Source of the DNA: Cupriavidus necator
Lineage (GTDB): Bacteria; Pseudomonadota; Gammaproteobacteria; Burkholderiales; Burkholderiaceae
Length of the DNA stretch: 32,000 nucleotides
Direction: 5' to 3'
Assembly (NCBI RefSeq): GCF_016127575.1
Contig: NZ_CP066018.1
Coordinates: 1,440,001-1,472,000, forward strand
The notes under the pieces are model-generated. The model did no database searches, was not told the origin of the DNA, and worked only from the letters and a program-made list of their open reading frames with translations. Position 1 is the stretch's first letter; every line of letters begins with the position of its first letter. A program made the position numbers and the translations under genes. Below, piece after piece: positions 1,475 to 23,020 of the stretch.

Positions 1475-1507
1475 GCGCGATTATAGCGATCCAGGGATGT
1501 CGATCCG

Positions 1508-2534: not shown

Positions 2535-2554
2535 CCGTTCCCGGTCCCCCGGAA

Positions 2555-6085: not shown

Positions 6086-6108
6086 GATTGGCTCCATCCT
6101 TAAGCTAA

Positions 6109-6172
6109 TCTCCGCAAATTCTGCGGAGAATGGCCCCGCCAGACTCCGCAGAGACCAAAAAAGGGGCCATTC
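6109..6172. terminator. Nested inverted repeats in the convergent MCP/MerR spacer (possible bidirectional terminator)
   Basis: TCTCCGCA (6109-6116) pairs with TGCGGAGA (6122-6129) across an AATTC loop. A third copy CTCCGCAG lies at 6144-6151. An outer stem GAATGGCCCC (6128-6137) pairs with GGGGCCATTC (6163-6172), enclosing an A6 run. There is no classical U tract after the first hairpin. Confidence 0.35.
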
Positions 6173-6196
6173 GAAACGCTTGTTCAGGGCGGAACG

Positions 6197-6631: not shown

Positions 6632-6634
6632 CGC

Positions 6635-6660
6635 TTGACCTCAAGTCGACTTGAACTGGC
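6635..6660 (+). promoter_or_regulatory. MerR-type promoter/operator: -35 TTGACC plus a 14-bp perfect palindrome in the spacer
   Basis: TTGACC lies at 6635-6640, directly followed by the perfect palindrome TCAAGTCGACTTGA (6641-6654). A 19-nt spacer would place a weak -10 CACAGT at 6660-6665. The site lies between the divergent merR-like gene and the methyltransferase gene. Confidence 0.5.
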
Positions 6661-6705
6661 ACAGTGTAGCTTCCATGCCAGGGCGGCGTGCAAGGAGATA
6701 CGACC

Positions 6706-7596: not shown

Positions 7597-8092
7597 TACA
7601 GCGGTGGCCCTCCTGCTCAATGCAATCGTGATCGGCACCGGCGCAACGCTGGTGATGGACGCCTGGGCCATCCTGCGCAAGCGGCTGCTGGGCGTCCCTG
7701 CGCTGGACTATGGACTCGTAGGCCGTTGGCTCGCGTGGCTGCCGCGAGGACGCCTTTGCCACCATCCCATCGCCGCATCGCCGCCGGTGCGCGGCGAGCG
7801 CGGGATCGGCTGGATCGCGCATTACCTGACCGGCATCGTGTTCGCGGCCATCCTGCTGGGGCTATGGGGACTCGACTGGGCACATCATCCGACGCTGGCA
7901 CCCGCGTTGATCGTCGGCATCGGCAGTGTGGCGGCACCGTTCCTGCTGATGCAGCCGGCGATGGGTGCCGGCATCGCCGCGAGCCGCACGCCGCGGCCAA
8001 ACGTGGCACGGGTGCATAGCCTGGTGACGCATGCGGTGTTCGGGCTGGGGCTCTATGTGGCGGGTTGGGTCGTGAGCCTGGTAGCGAACTGA
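7589..8092 (+). CDS. DUF2938-family integral membrane protein
   Basis: 167 aa and hydrophobic. It contains GTGATLVMDAWAIL...LDYGLVGRW...GERGIGWIAHYLTGIVFA as in DUF2938. Its ATG overlaps the methyltransferase stop by 8 nt (ATGCCTGA), implying co-translation. Confidence 0.75.
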   Translation: MPDTAVALLLNAIVIGTGATLVMDAWAILRKRLLGVPALDYGLVGRWLAWLPRGRLCHHPIAASPPVRGERGIGWIAHYLTGIVFAAILLGLWGLDWAHHPTLAPALIVGIGSVAAPFLLMQPAMGAGIAASRTPRPNVARVHSLVTHAVFGLGLYVAGWVVSLVAN

Positions 8093-8101
8093 CAAGCGGG
8101 C

Positions 8102-8122
8102 ACAGCGGCAGGCTGCCGTTGT
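8102..8122 (+). terminator. Weak hairpin after the DUF2938 gene
   Basis: ACAGCGGCAG-G-CTGCCGTTGT is an imperfect stem 10 nt past the stop at 8092. There is no T tract. Confidence 0.25.
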
Positions 8123-8316
8123 CAGATCCAAGGCCGAGGAGAAACCTCCGCGGCTTTCCGGATTTATGGCCTCAGCCAGGCATCGGAGACCGCGCCCAAA
8201 GTTTGCCGCCCGCTTCTGTGGGCTATCGAACCGTAGATTGCTGGCGCCGCTCCAGAATAGAAGTCCATCGGCGCCCGCTTCAGCGCCGGACGATCCCCAC
8301 CATCACGGGCGACAGG

Positions 8317-9180
8317 ATGACAAGGCTTTCGGGCCGGCTGGCTGCGTGCATCGCGTTCGGCCTTCTGCTGGCTGCCAGTGCGCAGGCGTCGGATATAGCC
8401 TGCAAGACCACGCTGCGTCCTTCCCGCTGCGACGATCCGCTCGCCGCCGGCACGTCCTGCCTGCATTCAGTGCCACACGCCGCCGACCTGATCTGCGATC
8501 ACGCGATGCTCCATCGCGAACATGAGCGCATCCACGCGGACCAGCAGCGCCGGCTACGCGCCGGCGCGATTCAAGGAAGCGACATCGCCGCCTGGCGGGA
8601 GCGCCGGGACGCCTGCACGTCGGTGGCATGCCTGGACCGGGTCTTTGCCAGCTGGCGGCGGCAGCCAGGCAAGAAACCACCGCGGGCTGCCGCGCCGCAA
8701 CCAACGCCGCCGGCGGCGCGGGCGCGGGAGGTGTCGAGGAACAAGCAGGCTGCGGTCAGGGTCGAGGCCTCGCGGCCAGCGGTCGCGCCACCTTCAGCGA
8801 CGCCAGCGACTCAACCAGCAGCGGAGCAGCTTCCAGCTCCACCACCGTCAGAGCCATTGGCAGAAGCGGGGATTCATGCGCCCCCTGTGGTGATCCAAAG
8901 AGCCTCCGGCCCGACGCTCCAGCAAGCTTCAATTCGTCCGACGCCGGCGCCGCAACCACGCGGCTGGGCATCGCTGGGCACGCTGGCGTGGCTGGGCATG
9001 TGCGGCGCGGGCGTCGCCTGCTGGTCCCGGCGTACGCGCGGCGAGTGGCTGCCGGGGGTCACCCGCCTGCGCGAGCGGACTCGGGATGCGCCGCCCATCG
9101 TGCTGTTGGTGAGCGGACTGCTCGCTTTGAACGGGGTACTGCTGTTGTGCGTCCTGACGGCGAGCCGGCCATTGTCGTGA
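8317..9180 (+). CDS. Hypothetical secreted/membrane-anchored protein (Cys-containing N-domain, Pro/Ala-rich linker, C-terminal TM helices)
   Basis: I moved the start to the ATG at 8317, giving MTRLSGRLAACIAFGLLLAASAQA-SD, a signal peptide with an AQA cleavage site. The Pro/Ala-rich middle reads PPRAAAPQPTPPAARA...PAPPPSEP. There are two hydrophobic C-terminal segments (LGTLAWLGMCGAGVACW and IVLLVSGLLALNGVLLLCVL). I recognised no family. Confidence 0.55.
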   Translation: MTRLSGRLAACIAFGLLLAASAQASDIACKTTLRPSRCDDPLAAGTSCLHSVPHAADLICDHAMLHREHERIHADQQRRLRAGAIQGSDIAAWRERRDACTSVACLDRVFASWRRQPGKKPPRAAAPQPTPPAARAREVSRNKQAAVRVEASRPAVAPPSATPATQPAAEQLPAPPPSEPLAEAGIHAPPVVIQRASGPTLQQASIRPTPAPQPRGWASLGTLAWLGMCGAGVACWSRRTRGEWLPGVTRLRERTRDAPPIVLLVSGLLALNGVLLLCVLTASRPLS

Positions 9181-9182
9181 GC

Positions 9183-9734
9183 TCATGCCGTTGCGCCGTC
9201 CCATGCAGGCGCGGGCGCAGTCTTGCACCAGCAAAGCAGGATGCTCGCCGCCAGGCGCAGGCCGCTGAATGGATGCATCAGGCAATGCCGCACCTGCTCG
9301 CTGCGGCTTTCGCCGTACAGGCACCACATGCAGAAGTGCTCGCAGTTGTTGGTCAGCAGGCGGTAGCAGTCCTCGCCCAACCGTGAGCGGGCGCGGCCGA
9401 CGGATTCAGCGGCACTGTACCGCGCCATGGGCGTGCTCAACACCGTGATGCCATGGCCGGCAGCAAAGGCGGCCAGGCTCAGTTCTTCCACCGGGCCGCG
9501 CTGCTGCCGGTGGCAATAGCCAGCGTAGTGCACCACCATGCCACGCCCGACGTAGATGCCGTGGTGTGCATAGCCATGACGCGGCGTGACCAGGTGTGCG
9601 CCGAGGTGCGGCTCTGCATCGGCGGCGAGGCGCGATGCCAGTACGTGCGGGCTGCGGGTGGCCTGCGCCGTTGTCTTCGTCGTTTCACCGAGGGATGCCA
9701 TCACCGTCTCCATTGCAGGCCTCTGCCGGGCCAT
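9183..9734 (-). CDS. LRAT / NlpC-P60 superfamily (lecithin retinol acyltransferase-like) protein
   Basis: H-box GYAHHGIYVGRGMVVHYAG and the catalytic Cys motif LLTNNCEHFCMWCLYG are present. A hydrophobic C-terminal tail reads LRLAASILLCW. The start is ambiguous (M1 9734, M8 9713 or M12 9701). Confidence 0.75.
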   Translation of the reverse strand: MARQRPAMETVMASLGETTKTTAQATRSPHVLASRLAADAEPHLGAHLVTPRHGYAHHGIYVGRGMVVHYAGYCHRQQRGPVEELSLAAFAAGHGITVLSTPMARYSAAESVGRARSRLGEDCYRLLTNNCEHFCMWCLYGESRSEQVRHCLMHPFSGLRLAASILLCWCKTAPAPAWDGATA

Positions 9735-12123: not shown

Positions 12124-12879
12124 ATGAACCTTCGTCGCAAATGCCTGATGGCCGGCCTGGCAACCCTGACCGCCCTGACCCTCGGCACCGCCGCGCAAGC
12201 GCAGGACAATGCCGTGCTGCGCGTGGCCACCGACGCCACCTTCCCGCCGATGGAATTTATCGAGAACGGCAAGCGCACCGGCTTTGACGTGGAGCTGGTG
12301 GAAGCCATGGCCAAGACGATGGGCAAGCGGGTTGAGTGGACCGACATTGACTTCAAGGGCCTGATCCCCGGGCTGGTCTCGCGCCGCTTTGACATGGCAG
12401 TTTCCGGCATCTACATCACACCCGAGCGCCGCAAGGTGGTGGACTTCACCGAGCCGTACTACGTCGGCGGCCTGGTGGCACTGGTCAAGAGCGGCAACAC
12501 CACCGTCCACGCCCCGGCCGACCTGAACGGCAAGAAGGTCAGCGTGCAGGTGGGCACCAAGTCGGTCAGCTTCCTGCGCGACACGTACCCGCAGGTGCAG
12601 CGTGTGGAAGTCGAGAAGAACCAGGAAATGTTCAACCTGGTCGAGATCGGCCGCGCCGATGCCGCCGTGACCGGCAAGCCGGCCGCGATGCAGTACGTCA
12701 AGACCCGCGGCGGCCTGCGCATGGTGGAGCAGCAGCTGACCACCGAGGAATACGGCATGGCCGTGCGCAAGGACACGCCCGAGCTGACCCGCGCCCTCAA
12801 TGCGGCACTCGCCAAGGTGAAGGCCGATGGCACCTACGCCAGGCTGACCCAGAAATGGTTCGGCACGGCCGCCAAGTAA
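12124..12879 (+). CDS. Polar amino-acid ABC transporter substrate-binding protein (family 3)
   Basis: AGGAGA RBS and signal peptide MNLRRKCLMAGLATLTALTLGTAAQA. The body is typical: ATDATFPPMEF...GFDVEL...FDMAVSGIYITPERRKVVDFTEPYY. Confidence 0.9.
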   Translation: MNLRRKCLMAGLATLTALTLGTAAQAQDNAVLRVATDATFPPMEFIENGKRTGFDVELVEAMAKTMGKRVEWTDIDFKGLIPGLVSRRFDMAVSGIYITPERRKVVDFTEPYYVGGLVALVKSGNTTVHAPADLNGKKVSVQVGTKSVSFLRDTYPQVQRVEVEKNQEMFNLVEIGRADAAVTGKPAAMQYVKTRGGLRMVEQQLTTEEYGMAVRKDTPELTRALNAALAKVKADGTYARLTQKWFGTAAK

Positions 12880-12897
12880 GCCGCGCGGATCATCATC

Positions 12898-13566
12898 ATG
12901 GAATTGGATTTTTCTCCTGTCTTTGCCGGCTGGCATGACATTGTCCACGGCGCCGTCATCACCGTGGAGGTGACGGCCTGCGCGCTGGTGCTGGGCTGCG
13001 TCATGGGCCTCTTGGTCGGCATCGGCCGGCTGGACCCGAAGCGCCGCGTCATCTACAGCATCTGCACCGCCTACGTGACCTTCATCCGCGGCACGCCGCT
13101 GCTGGTGCAGCTGTTCCTGCTGTTCTTCGGGCTGCCGCAGTTCAACATCCTGCTGCCGGCCTTTGTGTGCGGCGTGATCGGGCTGGGCATCTATTCCGGC
13201 GCCTATGTCTCGGAAATCGTGCGCGGCGCGATCCAGTCCGTGGACAAGGGCCAGATGGAAGCCGCGCGCTCGATCGGCATGTCGTCCGGCCAGGCCATGC
13301 GCGCGGTGATCCTGCCGCAGGCCATCGTGCGCATGATTCCGCCGCTGGGCAACGAGTTCATCGCCCTCATCAAGAACTCGGCGCTGGTGTCGCTGCTGAC
13401 CATTGCCGACCTGATGCATGAGGGCCAGAAGATCATCAGCGTGTCGTACCGGTCGCTGGAAGTCTATCTGGCGATCGCGCTGGTTTATCTGATCCTGACG
13501 AGCGCGGCCGGGCTGATCCTGCGGCGCGCCGAACAACGGCTGCGCATGGGAGGCATGGTGCAATGA
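12898..13566 (+). CDS. Amino-acid ABC transporter permease (His/Glu/Gln/Arg/opine family)
   Basis: 222-aa membrane protein. It carries the EAA-type loop [38 protein letters not shown]. Confidence 0.9.
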
Positions 13567-14324
13567 GCGATTCCGCAATCATCCGGATCCGGAACCTGGG
13601 CAAATCGTTCGGCAGCCATACCGTCCTGCGCGGCATCGACTTCGATGTGGAGCCGTCGCAGGTCGTGGTCGTGATCGGCCCCAGTGGCTCGGGCAAGAGC
13701 ACCTTCCTGCGCTGCTGCAACGGCCTGGAACAACCCGAGGCCGGCACCATCGACATCGTCGGCAAGCGCCTGGTGACCGACGGCCAGCTGATCGGCGAGC
13801 ACGAGCTGAACCAGCTGCGCACCGAAGTGGGCATGGTGTTCCAGTCGTTCAACCTGTTCCCGCACCTGTCGGTGCTGCACAACGTCACGGTCGGTCCCCG
13901 CATGCTGCGCGGCGCCTCGCGCGAGGAAGCCGAGCGCAAGGCGATGGGCCTGCTTGAGAAAGTCGGCCTTGCGCACAAGGCCCACGCCATGCCCGCCAGC
14001 CTGTCGGGCGGCCAGAAGCAGCGCGTGGCCATTGCCCGCGCACTGGCCATGGAACCGCGCGTGATGCTGTTCGACGAGCCGACCTCCGCGCTGGACCCCG
14101 AGCTGGTGGGCGAAGTGCTGCAGGTGATGAAGGTGCTGGCCGCCGAAGGCATGACCATGGTCGTGGTCACCCATGAAATGGGCTTCGCCCGCGAAGTGGC
14201 CGATGTGGTGGTGGTCATGGATGGCGGCGGCATCATCGAGGCCGGGCCGCCGTCGGTCATCTTCTCGGCGCCGACGCAGGAACGCACGCGCGGCTTCCTG
14301 CAGGCCGTGCTGACGCGGGCATGA
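13563..14324 (+). CDS. Amino-acid ABC transporter ATP-binding protein
   Basis: Walker [11 protein letters not shown]-loop, signature [15 protein letters not shown], Walker [12 protein letters not shown] and H-loop [10 protein letters not shown]. An ATGA start/stop overlap links it to the permease gene. Confidence 0.93.
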
Positions 14325-15271
14325 CGATGGCTCTGACCCAGAACCTCTGGCAGGGCCGTGTCGACGACGGCGAGCGTGGCGACACCACGCGCCTGTTCCG
14401 CATCGTGCACGTGCTGGAAGCAGCGGACGTGACACCGCTCGACGGCGCACCGGTGTTGCTCGGCTTCAATTGCGACGCGGGCGTGCTGCGCAACCAGGGC
14501 CGTCCCGGTGCCGCGCACGGCCCCGACGCCATCCGCCAGGCACTGGCCAACGTGCCGGCGCACGGGCTGCCCGCGCTATATGACGCCGGCAATGTCAGCT
14601 GTGACGACGGCGACCTGGAATCAGCCCAGCTGGCGCTGGCGGGCACCGTGCGCGACGTGCTGGCGCGCGGCGGGCTGCCGCTGGTGCTGGGCGGCGGCCA
14701 TGAAGTGGCCTGGGGCACGTGGCAAGGCCTGCGCGCGCACCTGGATGCGCAGGACGATGGCGGGCGCGTGCTCATCATCAATATCGATGCCCACTTTGAC
14801 TTGCGCACCAGCCGGCCCGCAAGCTCCGGCACGCCGTTCGACCAGATCGCCAACGCCTGCGCCGAGCGCGGGCAGCCGTTCGACTATGTCTGCCTGGGCG
14901 TCAGCCGCCTCAGCAACACGCCGGCGCTGTTCAGCCGCGCGGATGCGCTGGGCGTCTGCTACGTGGAAGACGTGGACATGCAGGAGCGGCACCTGGAATC
15001 GCGCCTGGCCGAACTGGCGGCGCGCATCGATGCCACCGACCACCTGTACCTGACCATCGACCTCGACGCGCTGCCGGCGGCCGTGATGCCGGCCGTGTCT
15101 GCGCCCGCGGCCTGTGGCGTGCCGTTGACGGTGGTGGAGGAAATCGCCATGCTTGCCCGCCACAGCGGCAAGCTGCGCGTGGCCGACCTGGCGGAATACA
15201 ACCCGCAATACGACCGCGACCACCAGGGCGCGCGCGTGGCAGCGCGGTTGGCCTGGCGCCTGTTCGGCTGA
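14321..15271 (+). CDS. Arginase-fold ureohydrolase, formimidoylglutamase-like
   Basis: The N-terminal LWQGRVDD resembles HutG-type formiminoglutamases. Metal-ligand motifs [19 protein letters not shown] and LTIDLDAL are present. An ATGA overlap links it to the ABC ATPase gene. Confidence 0.8.
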
Positions 15272-15335
15272 CAGGCAAGTCACCCCCAGCCGCCCGGCGG
15301 TTGGCACCAGCCGCGCCCGGCTATAGTATTGCCCT

Positions 15336-15351
15336 TCGCTATATTTAGCGA
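15336..15351. promoter_or_regulatory. Palindrome TCGCTA-TATT-TAGCGA in the AT-rich hss upstream region
   Basis: A 6-4-6 inverted repeat about 105 nt upstream of the hss GTG, within the only AT-rich patch (15321-15375) of the 186-nt spacer. Confidence 0.3.
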
Positions 15352-15457
15352 TTCCGATCAGAATTGATAAAGCGAGGCGAGGGCAGTCCTGCGCCGGCGC
15401 GGCCGTCCTGCCGCGCCCCCGGGCCGCCCATCGCCGGTTACGGGCGGAAGGGTCTGC

Positions 15458-16852
15458 GTGATCGAACAAATCGTCATCGTCGGCTTTGGCTGCATCGGCC
15501 AGGCCGTGCTGCCGCTGCTGGAACGAACCTGGCCGCGGGCAGCGATTACCGTGGTGGACCGCGTGCTCGACGGCACGCGCCGGCAACTGGCCGCCCGCCA
15601 CGGGCTGGATGCCATCGACGCCACCATCACGGCCGGCAACTTTGAAGCGATGCTGGGCCCGCTGCTGCGGCCTGGCACTTTCCTGCTGAACCTGGCACCG
15701 TCCGTCTGCAGCCGCGACCTGATCGCGCTGGCGCAAGCGCACGGCGCGTTCTATGTCGATGCCGGCATCGAACCGTGGGACTATGAAGCCGACCCGCAGG
15801 CCTCGCACCTGAGCAACTACGCGCTGCGCCACGAGATGCTGGCCTTCGCCCGCGGCCGTGAGACGCAGCCGACCGCGCTGGTGGCGCACGGCGCCAACCC
15901 TGGGCTGGTCTCGGTGCTGGTCAAGGCCGCGCTGATGGAACTGGCCGGCAATATCGGCTTGAATCAGCCCGAGCCCCACGACCGCGCCGGCTGGGCTGCC
16001 CTGGCGCGCGCACTGGACTTGCGCGTGATCCAGATCGCCGAGTACGACAGCCAGCAAGCCCCCGGCTATCCGCGCGACGGCGAGTTCGCCAACACCTGGT
16101 CGGCCGAAGGCTTTATCACAGAATGCCTGCAGGACGCCGAACTCGGCTGGGGCAGCCATGAGCCCGCGCTGCCGCCCGATGGCTATCGTCACGGCTACGG
16201 CAGCGGCGCGGCAATCGCGCTGGACCGGCCAGGGCATCGCACGCGCGTGCGGTCGTGGTCGCCGGTGCATGGCCCGTTCGATGCGTACCTGATCACGCAC
16301 AACGAATCGATCTCGATCGCCGAATACCTGACCGACCAGTCTGCCGGCCAGCCGCTGCACCGCCCCACCGTCTACTATGCCTATCGCCCGACATCCGCCA
16401 CGCAGACCTCGATGCAATGGCTCGACGAACGCGCCGCCCCGCGCGTGCGCGGCGAACGCATCCTGCGCGACGAGATCCAGTGCGGCGAGGACGAACTGGG
16501 CGTACTGCTGATGAGCGGCCGCCATGGCGCGGTCTGGTACGGATCGCGCCTCTCCACCCAACGCGCGCGTTCGCTGGCGCCGTACAACACCGCCACCAGC
16601 CTGCAGGTGGCATCGAGCCTGATCGCCGGCATGCAGTGGATGCTGGCCAACCCGGCGCGCGGCGTGGTGGAATCGGATGCGCTCGACTTTCGCCCCGTGC
16701 TGGCCGATGCCGCGCACTGGTGGGCACCGCTCAGCGTGCAGTTCTCCGACTGGCTGCCGCGGCCCGGCGCCACGTCGCTCGCCTTCACCGACTTCCTGCT
16801 GGACGATGCCATGACCCAGCCCGATCCATCGCCCCTGACCATGGCCTGCTGA
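15458..16852 (+). CDS. hss: Homospermidine synthase (bacterial HSS, saccharopine-dehydrogenase-like fold)
   Basis: 464 aa with a GTG start. It has a Rossmann IVIVGFGCIGQAVLPLLER and blocks I recognise from bacterial HSS. These are NLAPSV...LIALAQAHGAFYVDAGIEPW, SNYALRHEML, ALVAHGANPGLVSVLVKAAL and NTWSAEGFITECLQDAELGWGSHE. Confidence 0.85.
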   Translation: MIEQIVIVGFGCIGQAVLPLLERTWPRAAITVVDRVLDGTRRQLAARHGLDAIDATITAGNFEAMLGPLLRPGTFLLNLAPSVCSRDLIALAQAHGAFYVDAGIEPWDYEADPQASHLSNYALRHEMLAFARGRETQPTALVAHGANPGLVSVLVKAALMELAGNIGLNQPEPHDRAGWAALARALDLRVIQIAEYDSQQAPGYPRDGEFANTWSAEGFITECLQDAELGWGSHEPALPPDGYRHGYGSGAAIALDRPGHRTRVRSWSPVHGPFDAYLITHNESISIAEYLTDQSAGQPLHRPTVYYAYRPTSATQTSMQWLDERAAPRVRGERILRDEIQCGEDELGVLLMSGRHGAVWYGSRLSTQRARSLAPYNTATSLQVASSLIAGMQWMLANPARGVVESDALDFRPVLADAAHWWAPLSVQFSDWLPRPGATSLAFTDFLLDDAMTQPDPSPLTMAC

Positions 16853-18027
16853 TGCAACGCATCCCCCAGACCCCGCGTCGCAACTGGCCGCGCGAACTCG
16901 AGAAAGTCGGCTTCCACTTCCATTCGCTCGACGAATTCAACGTCCCGCGCGAAGTCGATGACAACACCTTCTTCTACTGGCGCGAAGACGCCGCCTACGC
17001 CTTCAGCAAGCAGGAGGTGGAGACGCTCTACGCCGCCGCGTACGACCTGAACCAGCGCTGCCTGGAAGCCGTGCAGCACGTGATCGACCACGACCTGTTC
17101 GCGCGCCTGGCGATCGACAAGGACTTCGCGCAGCTGATCCGCACCTCCTGGGACCGCGACGAGCCCACGCTGTTCGGCCGCTTCGACATGACGCTGGACC
17201 AGCACGGCGTGCCCAGGATGTACGAGTTCAACGCCGACACCCCGACCTCGCTGATCGAATCCGCCGTCGCACAGTGGTACTGGAAAGACACCGTGCAGCC
17301 GCAGGCCGACCAGTTCAACAGCCTGCACGACGCGCTGGTGGCGCGCTGGCAATGGCTGCGCAAGCACTACCGCAACGCCAGCATGCTGCACCTTGCGTGC
17401 ATGTTCGACAGCCAGGAAGACATCTGCAACACCGAGTACCTGATGGACACCGCGCTGCAGGCCGGCTGGTCCGTCAAGCTGGTCGACCTGCAAGACATCG
17501 GCACCGACGGCCGCGGCAACTTCTATGACGCCGACAACGTGCCGATGGAAGTCGTCTTCAAGCTCTACCCGTGGGAATGGATGGCCACCTCCGACTACCG
17601 CGACCAGCTGGCACACAGCCCCGTGCGCTGGGTCGAGCCGCCGTGGAAGGCCGTGCTGTCCAACAAGGCCATCCTGCCGATCCTGTGGGAGCTCTTTCCC
17701 GGCCACCCGAACCTGCTGGAAGCCAGCTTCGACCCCAGCCACTTCGCCGGTCAGCCGCACGCCAAAAAACCCTTCCTGTCACGCGAGGGCGAGAGCGTGA
17801 CCCTGGCCACCCCGGATGGCGGCCACGTCCACAATCCCGGCGAATACGGCGCCGAAGGCTTCATCTACCAGGCCTACGCCCCGGCGCGTCGCTTTGACGG
17901 CCGCTACACCACGCTGGGCGTATGGATTGTCGACGACGTGCCCAGCGGCCTGTGCGTGCGCGAGGAATCCGGGCCCATCGCCAAGAACACCAGTTTCTTC
18001 GTTCCACACTACTTCATGAACGAGTAA
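16852..18027 (+). CDS. Glutathionylspermidine-synthase-like ATP-grasp ligase (YgiC/YjfC family)
   Basis: I trimmed the 590-aa track ORF to the ATG at 16852 (391 aa). It is collinear with E. coli YgiC as I recall it: MQRIPQTPRRNWPRELEKVGFHFHS, FGRFDM, YEFNADTPTSLIESA, FKLYPWEWM, VRWVEPPWKAVLSNKAILPILWELFPGHPNLL, KKPFLSREGESV. The ATG shares 1 nt with the hss TGA. Confidence 0.88.
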   Translation: MQRIPQTPRRNWPRELEKVGFHFHSLDEFNVPREVDDNTFFYWREDAAYAFSKQEVETLYAAAYDLNQRCLEAVQHVIDHDLFARLAIDKDFAQLIRTSWDRDEPTLFGRFDMTLDQHGVPRMYEFNADTPTSLIESAVAQWYWKDTVQPQADQFNSLHDALVARWQWLRKHYRNASMLHLACMFDSQEDICNTEYLMDTALQAGWSVKLVDLQDIGTDGRGNFYDADNVPMEVVFKLYPWEWMATSDYRDQLAHSPVRWVEPPWKAVLSNKAILPILWELFPGHPNLLEASFDPSHFAGQPHAKKPFLSREGESVTLATPDGGHVHNPGEYGAEGFIYQAYAPARRFDGRYTTLGVWIVDDVPSGLCVREESGPIAKNTSFFVPHYFMNE

Positions 18028-18033
18028 GGACCG

Positions 18034-18759
18034 ATGGCAAAGAAGAACAACAACGGCCGCAAGCCGTCAAAGTACGACAGCCCGTACCAGCCCAAGTCGA
18101 AAGGATCGCCCCGGTCCGCGTGGCAGCCGCAGCCCTATGCGGGCGAGCAGAAACGCAGCTCGCCCGCGCTGTGGATCATCGGCGCCTGCGCCGTGGTGGC
18201 CGGCGTGGCGGCACTCGGCTCCTGCAGCGACGACGCCGACGACGATCCCGGCGTGACCGTACGCCGCGCCAGCTACGCCACGCTGGAAGACTGCGAAGCC
18301 GACTGGAACACCCCCAACGACTGCGAAAGCGTGCCAGTCGACGACCCCAGCACCATCTACAGCTCCAGCCTGAACGCATCCGCCAGCGACGCCGCCACCG
18401 GCGGCTCCGGCACCAGCCACGGCAGCAGCATGTACTACGCGCGCTGGTACGGCCCGTACTACACGTCCAGCGGCACCGTCTACCATCCCAACGGCACCCA
18501 GACCCGGCGCGACATGTCCGCCGGACCGCTGCGCCCGATGAACGTCTACGACAGCACCGGCACGCGCACGCAATCCTTCACCAACGCCACCCCGCACGCC
18601 GCGATGGTGGAAGAAGCCACCGTCCGCCGCAGCTCCCTCAGCGGCGGACGCTCCATGGGCCTGTCCATGCGCGCCGCGGCCGTATCGCGCGCACCGGTGG
18701 TATCGCGCGGCGGCTTCACCAGCCGCTTCGGCAGCTCCGGACGCTCCGGCGGCGGCTGA
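18034..18759 (+). CDS. DUF1190 (YgiB/YjfM-like) membrane-anchored protein
   Basis: AAGGA RBS 6 nt after the ligase stop. It has a basic N-terminus and one TM (ALWIIGACAVVAGVAALGSC). SYATLEDCEADW and the C-terminal VSRGGFTSRFGSSGRSGGG parallel E. coli YgiB (YATREDC ... RGGFG ... SSRSMGG). Confidence 0.7.
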   Translation: MAKKNNNGRKPSKYDSPYQPKSKGSPRSAWQPQPYAGEQKRSSPALWIIGACAVVAGVAALGSCSDDADDDPGVTVRRASYATLEDCEADWNTPNDCESVPVDDPSTIYSSSLNASASDAATGGSGTSHGSSMYYARWYGPYYTSSGTVYHPNGTQTRRDMSAGPLRPMNVYDSTGTRTQSFTNATPHAAMVEEATVRRSSLSGGRSMGLSMRAAAVSRAPVVSRGGFTSRFGSSGRSGGG

Positions 18760-18821
18760 GTGCCGCCTGCCGATCGCCATGTCGTATTCACATCCCTGAC
18801 AACTGACAACGAGTCCAACCT

Positions 18822-19220
18822 ATGGTCAATGCCATGCACCCGGCGCTTGCCTACCTGATCTATATCGTCACCAGCTTTGCCATGCTGGGGCTGTTCCTGC
18901 TGGTCTATACGCGGGTGACGCCGCATCGCGAGTTCCAGCTGATCCGCGAGGGCAATGTTGCAGCGGCGTTGTCGCTGGGCGGGGCGGTGCTGGGGTTCTC
19001 GCTGACGTTGTCGTCGAGCATTCAGCACAACGCTACGTTTGGGATGTTTTTGTTGTGGGCGTTTGGGGCGTTTGCGGTGCAGGTGTTGGCTTATCTGGTG
19101 GTGGCGAGGGCGTTGGGGGGTGTTGGTGAGGCTATTTCCAGCGATAACCGGGGGGTTGGGGCGGTGATGGGGGTGATTTCGTTGGCGGTGGGGGTGGTTA
19201 ATGCGGCTTGTTTGACTTGA
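18822..19220 (+). CDS. DUF350 (YjfL-like) small membrane protein
   Basis: 132 aa with four hydrophobic helices. It contains FQLIREGNVAAALSLGGAVLGFSL, typical of DUF350. An alternative start lies at 18834. Confidence 0.75.
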   Translation: MVNAMHPALAYLIYIVTSFAMLGLFLLVYTRVTPHREFQLIREGNVAAALSLGGAVLGFSLTLSSSIQHNATFGMFLLWAFGAFAVQVLAYLVVARALGGVGEAISSDNRGVGAVMGVISLAVGVVNAACLT

Positions 19221-19263
19221 GGTGATCTTGGGCCGAGGATCGCGAGGTTCCATTAGCAACCAC

Positions 19264-19848
19264 ATGACCAGACCAATGCCCGATCGCCCGCATCAGGAAG
19301 ACCTGACCATCCGACCTGCCACCCAAGCCGATGCGGCTGCGATTTCGGCGGTACATGCGCTTTGCTGGCATCAAGCATATGGCGAGCTGCTTCCCAAAGA
19401 TATGCTTGCGAATGTGACAGCGGAAAGCCGGCTGCCAGCCAGGTATCGCATTCTCGCGGACCCATCGGTAGCCTGTTTCGTCGCGACCAGTGAGGCTGAA
19501 GTCGTCGGCTTTTCCGATTGCGGACCATGTCGCGAAGCAGAGCAGGAATGTCGGGGAGAGGTCTACGCCCTCTACGTACTGGAGGCGTTTCATGACAAGC
19601 GTGTCGGCCTGAGGCTTCTGTCGTGCTGCGCGTCAGCCTTGTTGAGGCGAGGTTCCAGTTCGATGCGCCTGTGGTCACTCGAGGAAAATGCACGGGCGCG
19701 CAGGTTCTACGAACGTGCCGGCGGACGACTGCTAGACCGGCGCGTCTCGACCCGGGGCTCAGTGGTACTAACTGAAGTGGAATATCACTGGGACCTCATT
19801 GGCATGAAGCGGCTCGCAGCGCTCAAGTGGCATTTGTTGTGTAAATGA
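19264..19848 (+). CDS. GNAT-family N-acetyltransferase (lower-GC, probably acquired)
   Basis: I chose the start at ATG 19264. LTIRPATQADAAAISAVH opens a GNAT fold, with motif A-like LYVLEAFHDKRVGLRLL and ENARARRFYERAGG. Codon third positions are visibly less GC-biased than in flanking genes. The last ~7 codons overlap IS-derived sequence on the other strand. Confidence 0.7.
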   Translation: MTRPMPDRPHQEDLTIRPATQADAAAISAVHALCWHQAYGELLPKDMLANVTAESRLPARYRILADPSVACFVATSEAEVVGFSDCGPCREAEQECRGEVYALYVLEAFHDKRVGLRLLSCCASALLRRGSSSMRLWSLEENARARRFYERAGGRLLDRRVSTRGSVVLTEVEYHWDLIGMKRLAALKWHLLCK

Positions 19849-20080
19849 TCTTGCGGATCGCCGGCGGAAAGGCAAAGAGCGGGATCACCTGATCCCAGAC
19901 ACGACGTCAGGACGCGGCGATCGGGGAGTAGTCCTTACCCATTTGTCTTGGTCGAAGGCCTCCAGCTCGGCCAGCGCAGCCTCCGCACTGGGGGCCGCAT
20001 ACACGGGCTTGTGCGCCGCCGCCACGGCGCGGCGCCCCTTGCCGCCGCATCCGGACTGAGGCAAGTCATACAGTCGCCGT
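19829..20080 (-). pseudogene. IS256-family (Mutator-type) transposase remnant
   Basis: The minus-strand translation gives ...RRLYDLPQSGCGGKGRRAVAAAHKPVYAAPSAEAALAELEAFDQDKW, then a 1-nt frameshift, then GKDYSPIAAS, then an in-frame TGA where W is expected. It continues RRVWDQVIPLFAFPPAIRKIIYTTNA. The W..VIP.FAFP..IRK.IYTTNA block is the hallmark of IS256 transposases. Only about 85 codons remain. Confidence 0.65.
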
Positions 20081-20113
20081 CATCCCGTCGGCCCCCAACG
20101 TCGGCCCGGAGCG

Positions 20114-20965
20114 TCAACCAACGCGATCGCCGCGCTCCTCCACAGTAATCCGGTGCAACAGGCGATCATACCCATCATAGCCACCAGTCGCCGCATGATT
20201 CACACATCGGTTATCCCAAACAACAAGCATCCCCTGCGACCACCGATGGCGATACACAAACTCCGGCCTGGCCTGGTGCTCAAACAGCGCACGCAGGATC
20301 GGCGCCGCCTCCTCGTCGCTCATGCCATCGATGCCGATCGTATAGCCCACGCTGACAAACAAGGCTGTGCGCCCGGTTTCGGGATGCTTGCGCGCAATGG
20401 GGTGTAGCTGCGTTGCCATCGCACTGTCCGAATAGCGGATAGCCATCGAGCGTCCCTTGTCCTTCTCACCATATGCGCCCTGTCGCGAATAGCCGCGCCG
20501 CGCGGAATGGACGCCTTGCCTGCCGTCCACCAGTGATTTGAGTTCCGCCGGCAGCGCGTCCCAGGCGGCGTACTGGTCGGCGAACAGCGTGTCACCGCCC
20601 ACTGGCGGAATGACATTGCCGTATAGCACCGTAGCCGCCGGTGGCTGCGCCAGGAAGCTCCAGTCCGAGTGCCAGGACTCGGCAAAGATCGGCGTGCGCT
20701 CGTTGGCATCGCGCCGCACTTGCGCGACATGGGGATGGCCAGGGATGGCGGTGAAATACGGATCGCTGCCGAGCGGGCCGATCGTTGACGCGAAGCGTTC
20801 GATGTCCTCGATGGCCAGGTCCTGGTCGGTGAAGGCAAGGACCTTGTGCTCAAGCCAGTGCCGGCGAATCTCGGCGACTTGCGCATCGGTCAGTGCCTGC
20901 TTCAGGTCCAGGCCCAAGACCAGCGCGCCGCAGGGGGCGTCCTGCGGCAGAACTTGCATTGCCAT
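20114..20965 (-). CDS. TauD/TfdA-family Fe(II)/2-oxoglutarate-dependent dioxygenase
   Basis: AAGGAGA RBS. The facial triad is WHSDWSF (HxD) plus a distal His in VWDNRCVNHAA. The length (283 aa) is typical. Confidence 0.85.
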   Translation of the reverse strand: MAMQVLPQDAPCGALVLGLDLKQALTDAQVAEIRRHWLEHKVLAFTDQDLAIEDIERFASTIGPLGSDPYFTAIPGHPHVAQVRRDANERTPIFAESWHSDWSFLAQPPAATVLYGNVIPPVGGDTLFADQYAAWDALPAELKSLVDGRQGVHSARRGYSRQGAYGEKDKGRSMAIRYSDSAMATQLHPIARKHPETGRTALFVSVGYTIGIDGMSDEEAAPILRALFEHQARPEFVYRHRWSQGMLVVWDNRCVNHAATGGYDGYDRLLHRITVEERGDRVG

Positions 20966-21027
20966 TGCGCGTCTCCTTGATGAGCGTAAGGGAGCGAGTG
21001 GGGCGCACCAGGCGCACAGCGGCGCGC

Positions 21028-21903
21028 TCAGGCTGCCACGCCGACCGGGCGGTCGCCGGCGATGGTTGTGCGATGCAGCTCGCGGTCAAAGCCGTCATAG
21101 TCGTTCATCGCCAGATGCTGCGTGCAGCGGTTGTCCCACACGGCCAGCGCGCCGCGGGTCCAGCGGAAGCGGCAGGTGAATTCGGGGCGGGCGGCGTGGG
21201 CGTAGAGGTATTGCAGCAGCGGCGCGCTTTCTTCTTCGGTCATGCCCTCGAAGCGCATGGTGTAGGTGCTGTTGACGTACAGCGCCTTCCTGCCCGTGGC
21301 GGGATGCACCCGCACCACCGGATGGAGGACCTCGCTGTTGGCGCGGTCATCGGTACGCACGTCCATCTTGTGGGCGGGGTCGCCGTTGTTGACCACGGCG
21401 CCCCTGGCGCCATAGGAACGCACGGGGCTATGTACCGCGCGCAACTTGTCGAGCACCAGCTTTAGCCCATCGGAAAGCGCGTCGTACGCGTGATACATGC
21501 TGGCCCACATGGTGTCGCCACCGTAGGGCGGAATCACGCGCGCATACAAGGCGGACCCCAGCGGCGGGATTTCTGCATAGCTCATGTCCGTGTGCCAGGC
21601 ACCGCCGAAGTTGCGTTTGGTCTGCTCTGCCTTGCCCTTCATCACCGGCAGGATTTCAGCGTGGCCTTCCAGCGCGCGGACGAACGGCACTTCCAGCAGA
21701 TCGCCAAAGCGGGCGCTGAACGCCTTGTGCTGATCCGGCGTCAACTGCTGGTCGCGAAAGAAGATGACCTGATGGTTGTGCAGCGCCGAGCGGATCTCTG
21801 CGAACGTCTCGTCCGGCACCGGCTGGGACAGGTCTACCCCACTGATCTCCGCACCGAGGGCGCCCGCGATGGGCTGGACATCGATGAAACGGTATTGCGA
21901 CAT
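21028..21903 (-). CDS. TauD/TfdA-family Fe(II)/2-oxoglutarate-dependent dioxygenase (paralogue)
   Basis: AAGGAGA RBS. It has WHTDMSY (HxD), GGDTMWAS and VWDNRCTQHLA. Confidence 0.88.
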   Translation of the reverse strand: MSQYRFIDVQPIAGALGAEISGVDLSQPVPDETFAEIRSALHNHQVIFFRDQQLTPDQHKAFSARFGDLLEVPFVRALEGHAEILPVMKGKAEQTKRNFGGAWHTDMSYAEIPPLGSALYARVIPPYGGDTMWASMYHAYDALSDGLKLVLDKLRAVHSPVRSYGARGAVVNNGDPAHKMDVRTDDRANSEVLHPVVRVHPATGRKALYVNSTYTMRFEGMTEEESAPLLQYLYAHAARPEFTCRFRWTRGALAVWDNRCTQHLAMNDYDGFDRELHRTTIAGDRPVGVAA

Positions 21904-21947
21904 GGCTTGCGTTCTCCTTGCTTAAAAAGTGTTAGCGACTGCGAGGG

Positions 21948-22925
21948 TTACTGGACGGTGATGTGGGCGCTGCGCACCAGCGCGCGCCACTTCTGCGTTT
22001 CCGCATCGATAAAGACGCCGAACGCCTCCGGCCCGGCTCCGGAGATGACGCCGCCCATCTCATCGATCTTCTTGCGGACGTCGGGCATCTTCAGCACGGC
22101 TTCCAGCTCTGAATCCAGCCGGGCAACGATGGGCTTGGGCGTTGCTGCGGGCACCAGCACGCCGAACCAGCCTGCAATCTCATAGCCGCGCAGGCCGGCT
22201 TCCGCCATGGTGGGCACATCGGGCAGCAGCGGCGAACGCTGGGCTCCGGTGATCGCCAGCGCGCGCAGCTTGCCGGACTTCACCAGCTGCAGCGCCGACG
22301 GCATGTTGTCGAACATCACCGGAACATGCCCCGCCACGGTGTCGTTCAGCCCCGGCGCGCTGCCTTTGTAGGGAACGTGGGTCATGCGCACGCCGGCGGT
22401 GCTGGCAAACAGCTCGCCCGCCAGGTGCAGCGAGGTGCCGGCGCCCGGCGTTGCATAGGTCAGCGGCGTAGCCTGGCGCTTGCCGTACTGGATCAGGTCC
22501 TTCACGGATTGCACCGGCAGTGCCGTATTCACGACCAGCAGGTTGGGCACCGCCATCAGCATGGTCACCGGCGCGAGATCCTTGCCCGGCTTGTACGGCA
22601 GGTCGGGATAGAGCGAGGGATTGATCGCGATGGGGCCGATATTGCCCATCACGATGGTGTAGCCATCGGCTGGCTGCTTGGTCACGTAGTCAGTGCCGAC
22701 ATTGCCGCCGGCGCCTGCCTTGTTCTCTACCACCACGGGTTGCCCGAGCCGTTCCCCCAGCTTCTGGCCGACGATGCGCGCCAGCATGTCGGTGGATCCA
22801 CCGGGCGGGTAAGGGACAACCCATTTGATCGGCTTGCTCGGCCAAGCATCGCTGGCCCAGGCGGCAGGCCCGGGCATGATTGCAGCCGCGCAGGCCAGCG
22901 CGGCACTGAGAATGGGGCGCTTCAT
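21948..22925 (-). CDS. Bug-family (TctC-like) tripartite tricarboxylate transporter substrate-binding protein
   Basis: Start moved to the ATG at 22925 (GGAGA RBS). Signal peptide MKRPILSAALACAAAIMPGPAAWA, then WPSKPIKWVVPYPPGGSTDMLARIV...VENKAGAGG...PYKGSAP, typical of Bug proteins. Confidence 0.88.
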   Translation of the reverse strand: MKRPILSAALACAAAIMPGPAAWASDAWPSKPIKWVVPYPPGGSTDMLARIVGQKLGERLGQPVVVENKAGAGGNVGTDYVTKQPADGYTIVMGNIGPIAINPSLYPDLPYKPGKDLAPVTMLMAVPNLLVVNTALPVQSVKDLIQYGKRQATPLTYATPGAGTSLHLAGELFASTAGVRMTHVPYKGSAPGLNDTVAGHVPVMFDNMPSALQLVKSGKLRALAITGAQRSPLLPDVPTMAEAGLRGYEIAGWFGVLVPAATPKPIVARLDSELEAVLKMPDVRKKIDEMGGVISGAGPEAFGVFIDAETQKWRALVRSAHITVQ

Positions 22926-22985
22926 GTTGTCTCCTGTGGTGGAGCAGCGAGAATGCTTGCCGCCCACGCTTTCTTGATTTATATT

Positions 22986-23020
22986 GTTCACTTAGTGAAC
23001 GTACATTACACATAGTGAAC
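22986..23020. promoter_or_regulatory. Candidate IclR operator: palindrome GTTCAC-TTA-GTGAAC plus a third TAGTGAAC half-site
   Basis: The perfect 6-3-6 palindrome lies at 22986-23000. TAGTGAAC repeats at 22993-23000 and 23013-23020, 20 bp apart. The site lies in the 97-nt divergent spacer and ends 2 nt before the iclR-type ATG. Confidence 0.5.

What the first reader, a model, noticed from the sequence alone, without database searches (positions are those of the whole stretch)
15336..19220. Homospermidine synthase translationally coupled to an orphan YgiC/YjfC ATP-grasp ligase plus DUF1190 and DUF350
Seen directly: the hss stop and the ligase start share a nucleotide (cTGATGc at 16850-16854). 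DUF1190 follows 6 nt after the ligase, and DUF350 follows 62 nt later. The unit has its own AT-rich upstream region with a palindrome.

Established knowledge: in E. coli, ygiB-ygiC and yjfL-yjfM-yjfC link the same three families. YgiC/YjfC resemble glutathionylspermidine synthetase but, as far as I know, have no established substrate.

Inference: physical coupling to the enzyme that makes sym-homospermidine points to homospermidine as the amine substrate of this ligase. The product would be a homospermidine amide conjugate (thiol, peptide or protein C-terminus), handled at the membrane by the DUF1190/DUF350 partners. That would give a function to a widespread orphan module.
Basis: partly seen in the sequence, partly recalled or inferred. 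Interest (0 to 1): 0.65.

Follow-up and report, generated by a model that had tools for sequence, protein, structure and literature searches.

The report
Homospermidine synthase plus polyamine-ligase operon
A Cupriavidus operon joins the enzyme that makes the polyamine homospermidine to an ATP-dependent polyamine-peptide ligase and two membrane proteins; the pairing is real and conserved, but it was already noted in print and its product is still unknown.

Summary
The genes are hss (15458-16852), a YgiC/YjfC-type ATP-grasp ligase (16852-18027, TGATG overlap), a membrane-anchored protein (18034-18759) and DUF350 (18822-19220).

hss matches solved homospermidine synthases (E about 1e-100) and keeps all published catalytic residues. 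The third protein fails the Pfam DUF1190 model, but profile-profile comparison marks it as a divergent DUF1190-like protein.

The hss-ligase-DUF1190-like core recurs in Cupriavidus, Paraburkholderia, Trinickia and Robbsia, each time with different flanking genes. In Paraburkholderia graminis the ligase and the third protein are fused. The same four families also sit together in Achromobacter phage Motura and in one metagenome lineage.

The link is clade-specific. Only 1 of 80 more distant ygiC-family loci has hss, and C. gilardii/C. cauae keep hss without the ligase.

The finding is not new. Li et al. (PNAS 2023) reported hss-gss clustering in beta-Proteobacteria and suggested glutathionylhomospermidine. 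YgiC/YjfC are now annotated as peptide-spermidine ligases.

Most likely the cassette makes homospermidine and ligates it to a non-glutathione carboxylate at the inner membrane. That is an inference; no step has been tested biochemically.

The parts
15301..15329 (+). Sigma-70-like promoter candidate (TTGGCA, 17 nt, TAGTAT) in the local AT-rich stretch upstream of hss
   Evidence: 1 site found against 0.6 expected. It is conserved in seven necator-like Cupriavidus loci. This is a consensus match only, with no evidence of function.
15337..15364 (.). Two adjacent small palindromes, CGCTA-TATT-TAGCG (15337-15350) and ATTCCGATCAGAAT (15351-15364), just downstream of the -10 hexamer; a possible operator
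   Evidence: Read directly. The second is a perfect ATTCTGATCAGAAT in six relatives (alignment A1). Neither is conserved in C. basilensis or L017, so conservation may only reflect relatedness.
15458..16852 (+). hss: bacterial homospermidine synthase homologue, 464 aa, GTG start
   Evidence: Pfam PF03435 plus PF16653. Matches PDB homospermidine synthases 2ph5, 6y87 and 4plp at E about 1e-100 over the full length. The catalytic and binding residues listed by Krossa 2016 are all present: E105, N147, E195, W214, E222, H281, E283, Y307, D345.
16850..16854 (+). TGATG: the hss stop and the ligase start share one base (translational coupling signature)
   Evidence: The same 1-nt overlap occurs in L001-L006 and L012. 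L016 and L017 have a 4-nt ATGA overlap. L020, L024 and L027 have 1-11 nt gaps, and L018 has a 339-nt gap.
16852..18027 (+). Stand-alone ATP-grasp acid-amine ligase of the YgiC/YjfC (peptide-spermidine ligase) type, 391 aa
   Evidence: PF03738 E 8e-141, positions 1-371 of 371. YgiC 7uk8 E 2.5e-81 and YjfC 7uk6 E 1.5e-77, against GspS E 1e-25. GspS R316, R538 and R598 are conserved as R110, R311 and R370. GspS C338, D387 and E391 are replaced by S133, M184 and Q188, as in YgiC/YjfC.
18034..18759 (+). Divergent DUF1190-like protein, 241 aa: basic N-terminal tail, one hydrophobic segment (residues 42-66) ending in a lipobox-like LGSC, an acidic Cys-pair domain, and an SRGGF/Gly-rich C-terminus
   Evidence: No Pfam hit. 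Shared motifs with YgiB/YjfM. hhalign 98.9%, E 3.7e-17 against ligase-adjacent DUF1190-like proteins. Charge and hydropathy analysis. Fused to the C-terminus of the ligase in P. graminis P0126/P0127.
18822..19220 (+). DUF350 (YjfL-like) integral membrane protein, 132 aa, four hydrophobic segments
   Evidence: PF03994 E 1e-33. Hydropathy. Synteny among Cupriavidus genomes ends at its stop codon. Present in Cupriavidus-type cassettes, phage Motura and L066; absent from the Paraburkholderia, Trinickia and Robbsia cassettes.

Best explanation
This is a four-gene operon, an instance of the hss-gss cluster of beta-Proteobacteria.

Proposed mechanism (all inferred):
1. HSS condenses two putrescine molecules into sym-homospermidine. 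Putrescine is the abundant diamine of Cupriavidus.
2. The translationally coupled YgiC/YjfC-type ATP-grasp ligase activates a carboxylate as an acyl-phosphate and amidates it with that homospermidine.
3. The acid partner is probably a peptide-like C-terminal carboxylate rather than glutathione.
4. The reaction takes place at the cytoplasmic face of the inner membrane. The ligase is held there by the N-in/C-out (or lipoprotein-type) DUF1190-like partner, with DUF350 as an accessory membrane component in Cupriavidus.

Shown here: gene identities, intact catalytic residues, overlapping stop and start, conservation of the cassette as a mobile unit, the ligase::DUF1190-like fusion, and independent recurrence in a phage.

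Not shown: that HSS supplies the ligase's amine, the nature of the acid, and the role of the membrane partners.
For: - HSS is a full-length homologue of solved homospermidine synthases with all catalytic residues.
- The ligase is a full-length YgiC/YjfC-type enzyme with the three catalytic arginines. That family has peptide-spermidine ligase activity in vitro (RefSeq names).
- The hss-ligase-P3 unit is conserved with unrelated flanks in C. basilensis, L017, L018, Paraburkholderia, Trinickia and Robbsia.
- HSS and ligase identities to the window fall together across loci, from 93/97 to 45/65% in the bacterial cassettes and about 35/43% in Motura and L066.
- The stop/start overlap or a gap of 11 nt or less is seen in all but one locus.
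- The ligase is fused to the DUF1190-like protein in P. graminis. P0126 is read on 23 contigs, and P0127 is a second fusion cluster.
- The same four families cluster in phage Motura and in L066, in a different gene order and with ligases only 43% identical.
- Cupriavidus and Burkholderia are reported to contain putrescine and 2-hydroxyputrescine rather than free homospermidine (PMC10385936). That fits a conditionally made or conjugated product.
- Li et al. 2023 drew the same inference from this clustering.
Against: - There is no biochemical or expression evidence for any step.
- C. gilardii and C. cauae retain hss (76-78% identical, closer to the window than the C. basilensis cassette copy) without the ligase module. 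HSS therefore has a ligase-independent role.
- Sister ligases at 58% identity keep the DUF1190-like partner but have no hss.
- 79 of 80 more distant family members lack hss, so the ligase family as a whole does not depend on homospermidine.
- I found no robust residue signature separating hss-linked ligases. V268/A304/C368 is exclusive to them among 91 sequences, but it is conservative and confounded by phylogeny.
- The acid substrate cannot be read from the locus.
Confidence: 0.5

Rival explanations
1. The product is glutathionylhomospermidine. The ligase would act as a true glutathionylspermidine-synthetase analogue, using glutathione as the acid and homospermidine as the amine. This is the suggestion of Li et al. 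2023.
For: It is the published reading of the hss-gss clustering. The ligase belongs to PF03738 and keeps the catalytic arginines as well as D389 and E392 of the GspS polyamine site.
Against: - The protein is far closer to YgiC/YjfC (E 1e-81) than to GspS (E 1e-25).
- It scores 128.6 bits against the 882-bit cut-off of the GspS equivalog model.
- YgiC/YjfC lack glutathionylspermidine synthetase activity (Sui 2012, as cited).
- GspS C338, D387 and E391 are replaced.
- There is no amidase domain.
Confidence: 0.15
2. The ligase uses another amine (putrescine, 2-hydroxyputrescine or spermidine). HSS is then linked for a different reason. Either it is co-regulated for polyamine homeostasis, or it acts after the ligase and adds an aminobutyl group to a putrescine conjugate.
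For: - Most family members work without hss.
- E. coli enzymes use spermidine.
- The ligase module is also linked elsewhere to other polyamine genes, AdoMetDC and polyamine oxidase (PMC11237479).
- hss survives alone in C. gilardii.
Against: The tight translational coupling and co-inheritance of hss with the ligase across genera, and in a phage, argue for a direct substrate-product relation. The bacterial HSS active site is a narrow pocket selecting free linear diamines (PMC4725965), which makes a bulky conjugate substrate unlikely.
Confidence: 0.2
3. The ligase modifies a protein rather than a small molecule. It would amidate the Gly/Ser-rich C-terminus of its DUF1190-like partner, or of another envelope protein, with homospermidine before export. 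This would resemble RimK or tubulin-tyrosine-ligase type C-terminal modification.
For: - The DUF1190-like protein is the only invariant partner of the ligase, present in bacteria and in both phages, and is sometimes fused to it.
- Family members end in small residues after a conserved SRGGF motif.
- The known in vitro activity is on peptide carboxylates.
Against: - The C-terminal domain is predicted to be periplasmic: positive-inside N-terminus, Cys pair, and classic lipoprotein signals in the short homologues. It would therefore be out of reach of an ATP-dependent cytoplasmic enzyme after export.
- The C-terminal residue is not conserved (G or S).
- There is no direct evidence.
Confidence: 0.1
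4. The adjacency has no functional meaning and is a chance juxtaposition inherited within one lineage.
For: The cassette is missing from C. gilardii and C. cauae, and most ligase homologues lack hss.
Against: The unit recurs with different flanks in at least four genera. It has overlapping or near-abutting reading frames and co-varying divergence. It was also assembled independently, in another gene order, in phage Motura and in L066.
Confidence: 0.03

Closest known systems
hss-gss gene clusters of beta-Proteobacteria and Achromobacter phage Motura (Li et al., PNAS 2023, PMC9992855, Fig. 4B)
   Same: Homospermidine synthase lies next to a glutathionylspermidine-synthetase homologue, with DUF and hypothetical genes alongside. 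The host is a beta-proteobacterium. The inference is the same: a homospermidine conjugate. Motura carries HSS, a DUF1190-like protein, the ligase and DUF350.
   Different: Gene order differs: here it is hss-ligase-DUF1190-like-DUF350, in Motura hss-DUF1190-like-ligase-x-DUF350. I could not confirm that a Cupriavidus locus is among those drawn in the paper. The paper proposes glutathione as the acid, whereas the sequence evidence here points to a YgiC/YjfC-type, non-glutathione enzyme.
E. coli ygiB-ygiC and yjfL-yjfM-yjfC (DUF1190 / DUF350 / peptide-spermidine ligase)
   Same: The same three protein families occur in one operon. The ligase is about 40% identical to YgiC over its full length. 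The DUF350 protein is of the YjfL type.
   Different: The order is reversed: in E. coli the ligase comes last. There is no tolC, and none of PspA (YjfJ), YjfI or YjfK. The DUF1190-like protein is too divergent for the Pfam model. hss is added. E. coli makes spermidine and has no hss.
E. coli GspS/Gss, bifunctional glutathionylspermidine synthetase/amidase
   Same: The same ATP-grasp synthetase domain (PF03738), catalytic arginines, and part of the acidic polyamine site.
   Different: No amidase domain. It scores far below the equivalog cut-off (128.6 against 882 bits). Residues at the GspS positions C338, D387 and E391 differ.
PspA-associated polyamine operons (Ravi et al., mSystems 2024, PMC11237479)
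   Same: An ATP-grasp GSS-like ligase, a DUF350 4-TM protein and a DUF1190 lipoprotein are linked to polyamine-metabolism genes.
   Different: Those operons carry the CesT/Tir-PspA dyad, AdoMet decarboxylase, polyamine oxidase and a K+ channel. This one carries none of them and has hss instead.

Membership tests
Bacterial homospermidine synthase (EC 2.5.1.44, BvHSS/LpHSS type) | Saccharopine-dehydrogenase-like NAD(P)-binding domain and C-terminal domain, with full-length similarity to solved HSS | tested here: met
   PF03435 E 6e-26 and PF16653 E 1e-17. 2ph5 E 1.4e-102, 6y87 4e-102, 4plp 4e-100, covering residues 4-444.
Bacterial homospermidine synthase (EC 2.5.1.44, BvHSS/LpHSS type) | Conserved substrate-binding and catalytic residues: BvHSS N162, E210, W229, E237, H296, E298, Y323, D361, plus E117 | tested here: met
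   Residue list from PMC4725965. Window equivalents are N147, E195, W214, E222, H281, E283, Y307, D345 and E105. The ionic-slide residue D94 is Ser here, but it also varies in Legionella HSS.
Bacterial homospermidine synthase (EC 2.5.1.44, BvHSS/LpHSS type) | Makes sym-homospermidine from putrescine | not testable with these tools
   Needs expression in E. coli and LC-MS, as done for viral HSS in PMC9992855.
YgiC/YjfC peptide-spermidine ligases (stand-alone GSP_synth ATP-grasp) | [quoted passage not shown] | tested here: met
   PF03738 positions 1-371 of 371, E 8e-141. The protein is 391 aa. YgiC 2.5e-81 and YjfC 1.5e-77, against TryS 1e-33 and GspS 1e-25.
YgiC/YjfC peptide-spermidine ligases (stand-alone GSP_synth ATP-grasp) | Catalytic arginines of the acyl-phosphate mechanism (GspS R316, R538, R598) | tested here: met
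   R110, R311 and R370 are conserved, and are invariant in the 15-sequence alignment A3.
YgiC/YjfC peptide-spermidine ligases (stand-alone GSP_synth ATP-grasp) | ATP-dependent ligation of a polyamine to a peptide carboxylate | not testable with these tools
   The activity is known only for the E. coli enzymes. The original paper is not held.
Glutathionylspermidine synthetase/amidase (GspS, NF007801) | Equivalog score, amidase domain, and GspS-type residues at the substrate pockets (C338, D387, E391) | tested here: not met
   128.6 bits against the 882-bit cut-off. No N-terminal domain. The three positions are S133, M184 and Q188.
DUF1190 (PF06693; YgiB/YjfM) | Score above the Pfam gathering threshold | tested here: not met
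   No hit even at E=10. YgiB scores 187 bits and YjfM 64 bits on the same model.
DUF1190 (PF06693; YgiB/YjfM) | Shared architecture and motifs (basic N-terminus, hydrophobic or lipobox segment, Y-A-x-x-x-D-C...C, YGxY, [ST]RGG[FY], Gly/Ser-rich tail) and a position next to a ygiC-type ligase | tested here: met
   Alignment A2 has invariant Y81, C87, C97, G140, G147 and R225-G226-G227. hhalign 98.9%, E 3.7e-17 against a set that includes YgiB, YjfM and Motura. An HMM of that set hits the window protein at E 4e-11. Members of the set give PF06693 as their only hit: one at 5e-35, the others below threshold. Overall this is a divergent relative, not a formal Pfam member.
DUF350 (PF03994; YjfL) | Pfam score above threshold and about four transmembrane segments | tested here: met
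   116.7 bits against a cut-off of 26. Four hydrophobic segments.
hss-gss cluster of beta-Proteobacteria (Li et al. 2023) | hss physically clustered with a gss homologue in a beta-proteobacterial genome | tested here: met
   Overlapping genes in a Cupriavidus window. Published statement.
PspA-linked yjfIJKLMC-type module | PspA/YjfJ, YjfI (CesT/Tir-like) and YjfK encoded in the same operon | tested here: not met
   The flanking genes are a hutG-like gene and a GNAT gene. No PspA-family hit appears among the 30-odd window proteins scanned.

The most novel reading that the evidence does not exclude
The cassette makes a so-far undescribed homospermidine amide of a non-glutathione peptide or of a protein C-terminus, possibly that of the DUF1190-like partner itself. 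The ligase would assemble it while tethered to the inner membrane by that partner, and it would be used in the cell envelope. If so, Burkholderiaceae would offer the first genetic system in which the amine substrate of a YgiC/YjfC-family ligase is fixed by the operon itself. The unknown acid substrate of the whole family would then become directly discoverable by comparing hss and ligase mutants by mass spectrometry.
Probability: 0.3. Interest if true: 0.6.

Novelty: already known. Interest (0 to 1): 0.35.

Why it matters
YgiC/YjfC-type ligases with their DUF1190 and DUF350 partners are widespread, occur in phages, and sit in the tolC operon of E. coli. Their physiological substrates and role are still unknown. 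An operon that hard-wires one polyamine synthase to the ligase narrows the amine substrate. It also offers a tractable route to the acid substrate: compare metabolites of hss and ligase mutants in a genetically amenable host such as Cupriavidus necator.

What this analysis adds to the published one-line observation:
- The enzyme is of the non-glutathione YgiC/YjfC type.
- The DUF1190-like partner is the invariant companion and is physically fused to the ligase in some Paraburkholderia.
- The hss link is confined to one Burkholderiaceae clade plus two independent lineages.
- hss can persist without the ligase.

The practical value is as an entry point for experiments, not as a new kind of system.

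Tried and rejected
- Plasmid collection, megablast with the 4-kb region: no match.
- Rfam scan of 13000-21000 at E up to 1: only two chance-level sRNA hits far below their gathering scores, and no riboswitch upstream of hss.
- Inverted-repeat search upstream: returned only GC-rich chance pairs. The small AT-rich palindromes were read by eye.
- Pfam and NCBIfam on the third protein: nothing. An HMM of the P3 clade against YgiB/YjfM alone was only borderline, E 0.06 and 0.18. The link needed the intermediate ligase-adjacent proteins.
- Word-based homologue search for the third protein: found only Cupriavidus relatives.
Wider sampling had to rely on exact-protein look-ups and one metagenome scan.
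- Primary papers not held: Pederick 2023, Sui 2012 and Pai 2006. Statements about E. coli enzyme activities are second-hand, from a review and from RefSeq names.
- The supplement of Li 2023 did not list the clustered genomes.
- P0094 (Ramlibacter) context: not on record.
- Search for specificity-determining residues in hss-linked ligases: V268/A304/C368 is exclusive to them, but it is conservative and phylogenetically confounded, so I do not rely on it.
- The upstream hutG-like gene and the downstream GNAT gene are not part of the unit. Neither is conserved with the cassette outside close relatives.

Full report
**1. What is in the sequence**

The region holds four same-strand ORFs exactly as described:
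- hss, 15458-16852 (GTG start)
- a ligase, 16852-18027
- a 241-aa ORF, 18034-18759
- a 132-aa ORF, 18822-19220

The hss stop and the ligase start share one base (TGATG at 16850-16854). The next two spacers are 6 nt and 62 nt. No intrinsic-terminator-like site lies on the + strand inside the unit.

Upstream, a stretch of about 60 nt and about 40% GC carries a sigma-70-like TTGGCA-17-TAGTAT (15301-15329). Two small palindromes follow at 15337-15364. The second reads as a perfect ATTCTGATCAGAAT in six related Cupriavidus genomes, but is absent from more distant cassettes. No Rfam family matches.

The window comes from a necator-like Cupriavidus. The closest locus found is C. lacunae, and in C. 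nantongensis the locus lies on chromosome 2.

**2. What the genes are**

*HSS.* The protein has the two saccharopine-dehydrogenase-type domains. It aligns over its full length with the solved homospermidine synthases of Legionella, Pseudomonas and Blastochloris at E about 1e-100. Every residue that Krossa et al. list as binding or catalytic is present: N147, E195, W214, E222, H281, E283, Y307, D345, and also E105 (PMC4725965).

*Ligase.* It matches PF03738 end to end. It resembles YgiC and YjfC (E 1e-81 and 1e-77) far more than GspS (1e-25). It falls far below the GspS equivalog cut-off and has no amidase domain. It keeps the three catalytic arginines. At GspS positions C338, D387 and E391 it carries S, M and Q, following the YgiC/YjfC pattern (residue roles from PMC6272389).

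*DUF350.* The assignment is unambiguous, and the protein has four hydrophobic segments.

*Third protein.* It fails the Pfam DUF1190 model outright, yet several lines tie it to that family:
- It aligns with YgiB/YjfM through a shared series of motifs.
- Its clade matches a profile of ligase-adjacent DUF1190-like proteins at 98.9% probability. That profile includes YgiB, YjfM and the Motura protein.
- Members of that set give PF06693 as their only Pfam hit, mostly below threshold.

I therefore call it a divergent DUF1190-like protein.

Its N-terminal 45 residues carry 10 K/R against 2 D/E. A single hydrophobic segment ends in LGSC, and the following region is acidic with two invariant cysteines. 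This points to a cytoplasmic N-terminus and a periplasmic body. Short homologues carry classic lipoprotein signals.

**3. Is the linkage real?**

Yes.
- The full four-gene cassette is present in all necator-like Cupriavidus loci. It is also in C. basilensis, an unassigned Logan contig and a MAG contig labelled Desulfobulbus, each time with unrelated flanking genes.
- The three-gene core, hss-ligase-DUF1190-like without DUF350, is present in Paraburkholderia sp., Robbsia and Trinickia. In P. graminis the same three functions sit in two genes, hss and a ligase::DUF1190-like fusion.
- HSS and ligase identities to the window fall together: 93/97, 88/94, 73/86, 70/79, 69/78, 64/75, 53/66, 51/70 and 45/65%.
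- In P. graminis and a relative, the ligase and the DUF1190-like protein form one 646- or 624-aa polypeptide. The tail is 45% identical to the window protein, E 3e-38. The first form is read on 23 contigs. This argues for physical association of the two proteins. It also places the ligase on the cytoplasmic side of the hydrophobic segment.
- Achromobacter phage Motura encodes HSS, a DUF1190-like protein, the ligase and DUF350 in a different order.
- Metagenome locus L066 has the Motura-like order, with an HSS that matches solved HSS at E 8.5e-80.
- Ralstonia phage phiRSL1 has a DUF1190-like gene directly upstream of its gsp.

**4. Limits of the linkage**

- I scanned metagenome contigs with a ligase alignment and obtained 80 ygiC-family loci, 41-58% identical to the window ligase. 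DUF350 is adjacent in about 53 and a detectable DUF1190-like gene in about 25, but hss in only one.
- The nearest sister ligases, at 58% identity (P. phosphatilytica and L032), keep the DUF1190-like partner without hss.
- C. gilardii, C. cauae and related MAGs have an hss 76-78% identical to the window gene, which is closer than the C. basilensis cassette copy. A Kelch/He_PIG protein follows it instead of the ligase. This is best read as secondary loss of the ligase module.
- hss also occurs alone in Paludibacterium and Pseudomonas amygdali.

So hss is an add-on to one clade of the ligase module plus two independent lineages. It is not a general property of the family, and HSS has uses of its own.

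**5. What is already known**

- E. coli YgiC lacks glutathionylspermidine synthetase activity, and YgiC/YjfC have peptide-spermidine ligase activity with an unknown physiological substrate (review PMC11762307). RefSeq now names both proteins accordingly.
- Ravi et al. described ATP-grasp GSS-like ligase, DUF350 and DUF1190 operons linked to polyamine genes (PMC11237479).
[quoted passage not shown] They drew such clusters, including that of phage Motura (PMC9992855).

The statement that the family has no established substrate is outdated.

**6. Most likely mechanism**

The steps below are inferred from the shown anatomy.
1. HSS converts putrescine to homospermidine.
2. The translationally coupled ligase phosphorylates a carboxylate and amidates it with homospermidine.
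3. The acid is more likely a peptide-type carboxylate than glutathione, because the enzyme is of the YgiC/YjfC type.
4. The ligase works at the inner membrane, bound to the DUF1190-like protein. DUF350 is an accessory part in Cupriavidus.

Cupriavidus and Burkholderia are reported to contain putrescine and 2-hydroxyputrescine rather than free homospermidine (PMC10385936). That is compatible with conditional expression or with channelling into a conjugate.

I put this at about 0.5. The rivals are:
- glutathionylhomospermidine, 0.15
- another amine, or HSS acting for other reasons, 0.2
- modification of a protein C-terminus, 0.1
- coincidence, 0.03

**7. Verdict**

The finding is an instance of a published gene cluster whose chemistry is still untested. 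Its value is as a practical handle on the unknown substrate of the YgiC/YjfC family. Interest is moderate to low (0.35).

Noticed in passing
window 19222-19848 (+): A GNAT acetyltransferase ORF starts 1-2 nt after the DUF350 stop (an alternative ATG lies at 19265). It sits in a lower-GC stretch (about 0.58, GC3 0.65). It is present only here and, in part, in C. lacunae. Synteny among Cupriavidus genomes ends exactly at the DUF350 stop, so this looks like a strain-specific insertion. A role in polyamine acetylation is possible but not supported by conservation.
   Followed up: partly
window 18822-19220 (+): The DUF350 gene uses G-ending codons (G3 0.57, C3 0.20), whereas all neighbouring genes prefer C-ending codons (C3 0.48-0.65). 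The bias is conserved in every Cupriavidus copy, and GC skew flips to +0.27 across the gene.
   Followed up: partly
L024-L026 (Paraburkholderia graminis and metagenomes), proteins P0126 and P0127: The ligase and the DUF1190-like protein are fused into one 646- or 624-aa protein. P0127 lacks the lipobox cysteine, so at least that form must be a membrane-anchored fusion rather than a cleaved lipoprotein.
   Followed up: yes
L013 (Cupriavidus necator A5-1) 6001-8568: hss and the ligase are each broken into several tblastn segments in different frames. These are either pseudogenes or indel errors in a PacBio assembly.
   Followed up: no
L021 (Paludibacterium paludis) 1-7410: Here hss sits at the end of a cluster encoding two ketosynthases, an ACP, an AMP-dependent ligase, a hydrolase and a phosphopantetheinyl transferase. 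This suggests an acylated homospermidine natural product, which would be a different use of HSS.
   Followed up: no
L022/L023 (Pseudomonas amygdali) 6001-9580: hss is followed 1 nt later by an unannotated 127-aa ORF with no Pfam hit and no similarity to the Motura DUF1190-like protein. An IS element (DDE_Tnp_1) comes next.
   Followed up: partly
L018/L019 (MAG labelled Desulfobulbus sp.): The cassette proteins on this contig are 66-78% identical to the Cupriavidus proteins (40% for the DUF1190-like protein). The contig is probably a misbinned beta-proteobacterial fragment. It is also the only cassette with a long (339-nt) gap between hss and the ligase.
   Followed up: no
ligase alignment of 91 sequences (window residues 268, 304, 368): The combination V268/A304/C368 occurs only in the 11 hss-linked ligases, including phage Motura and L066. 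A304 plus C368 also occur in unlinked relatives, and V268 is a conservative change. It is a weak candidate specificity signature.
   Followed up: partly
window 12124-15271 (+): A polar amino-acid ABC transporter (binding protein, permease, ATPase) is followed by a gene that passes the hutG (formimidoylglutamase) equivalog cut-off, with a stop/start overlap. It travels with hss only in necator-like Cupriavidus and is not part of the cassette.
   Followed up: partly
window 20114-22991 (-): Two tandem TauD/TfdA-family dioxygenase genes sit beside a TctC-type solute receptor, with IclR- and GntR-type regulators further on. No other polyamine-related gene was found in the 32-kb window.
   Followed up: no
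L113 (Ralstonia phage phiRSL1) 2595-4122: The phage gsp gene is directly preceded by a 134-aa ORF whose only Pfam hit is a sub-threshold DUF1190 match (E 0.02). The ligase-plus-DUF1190-like pair therefore also travels in a phage whose hss lies elsewhere in the genome.
   Followed up: partly
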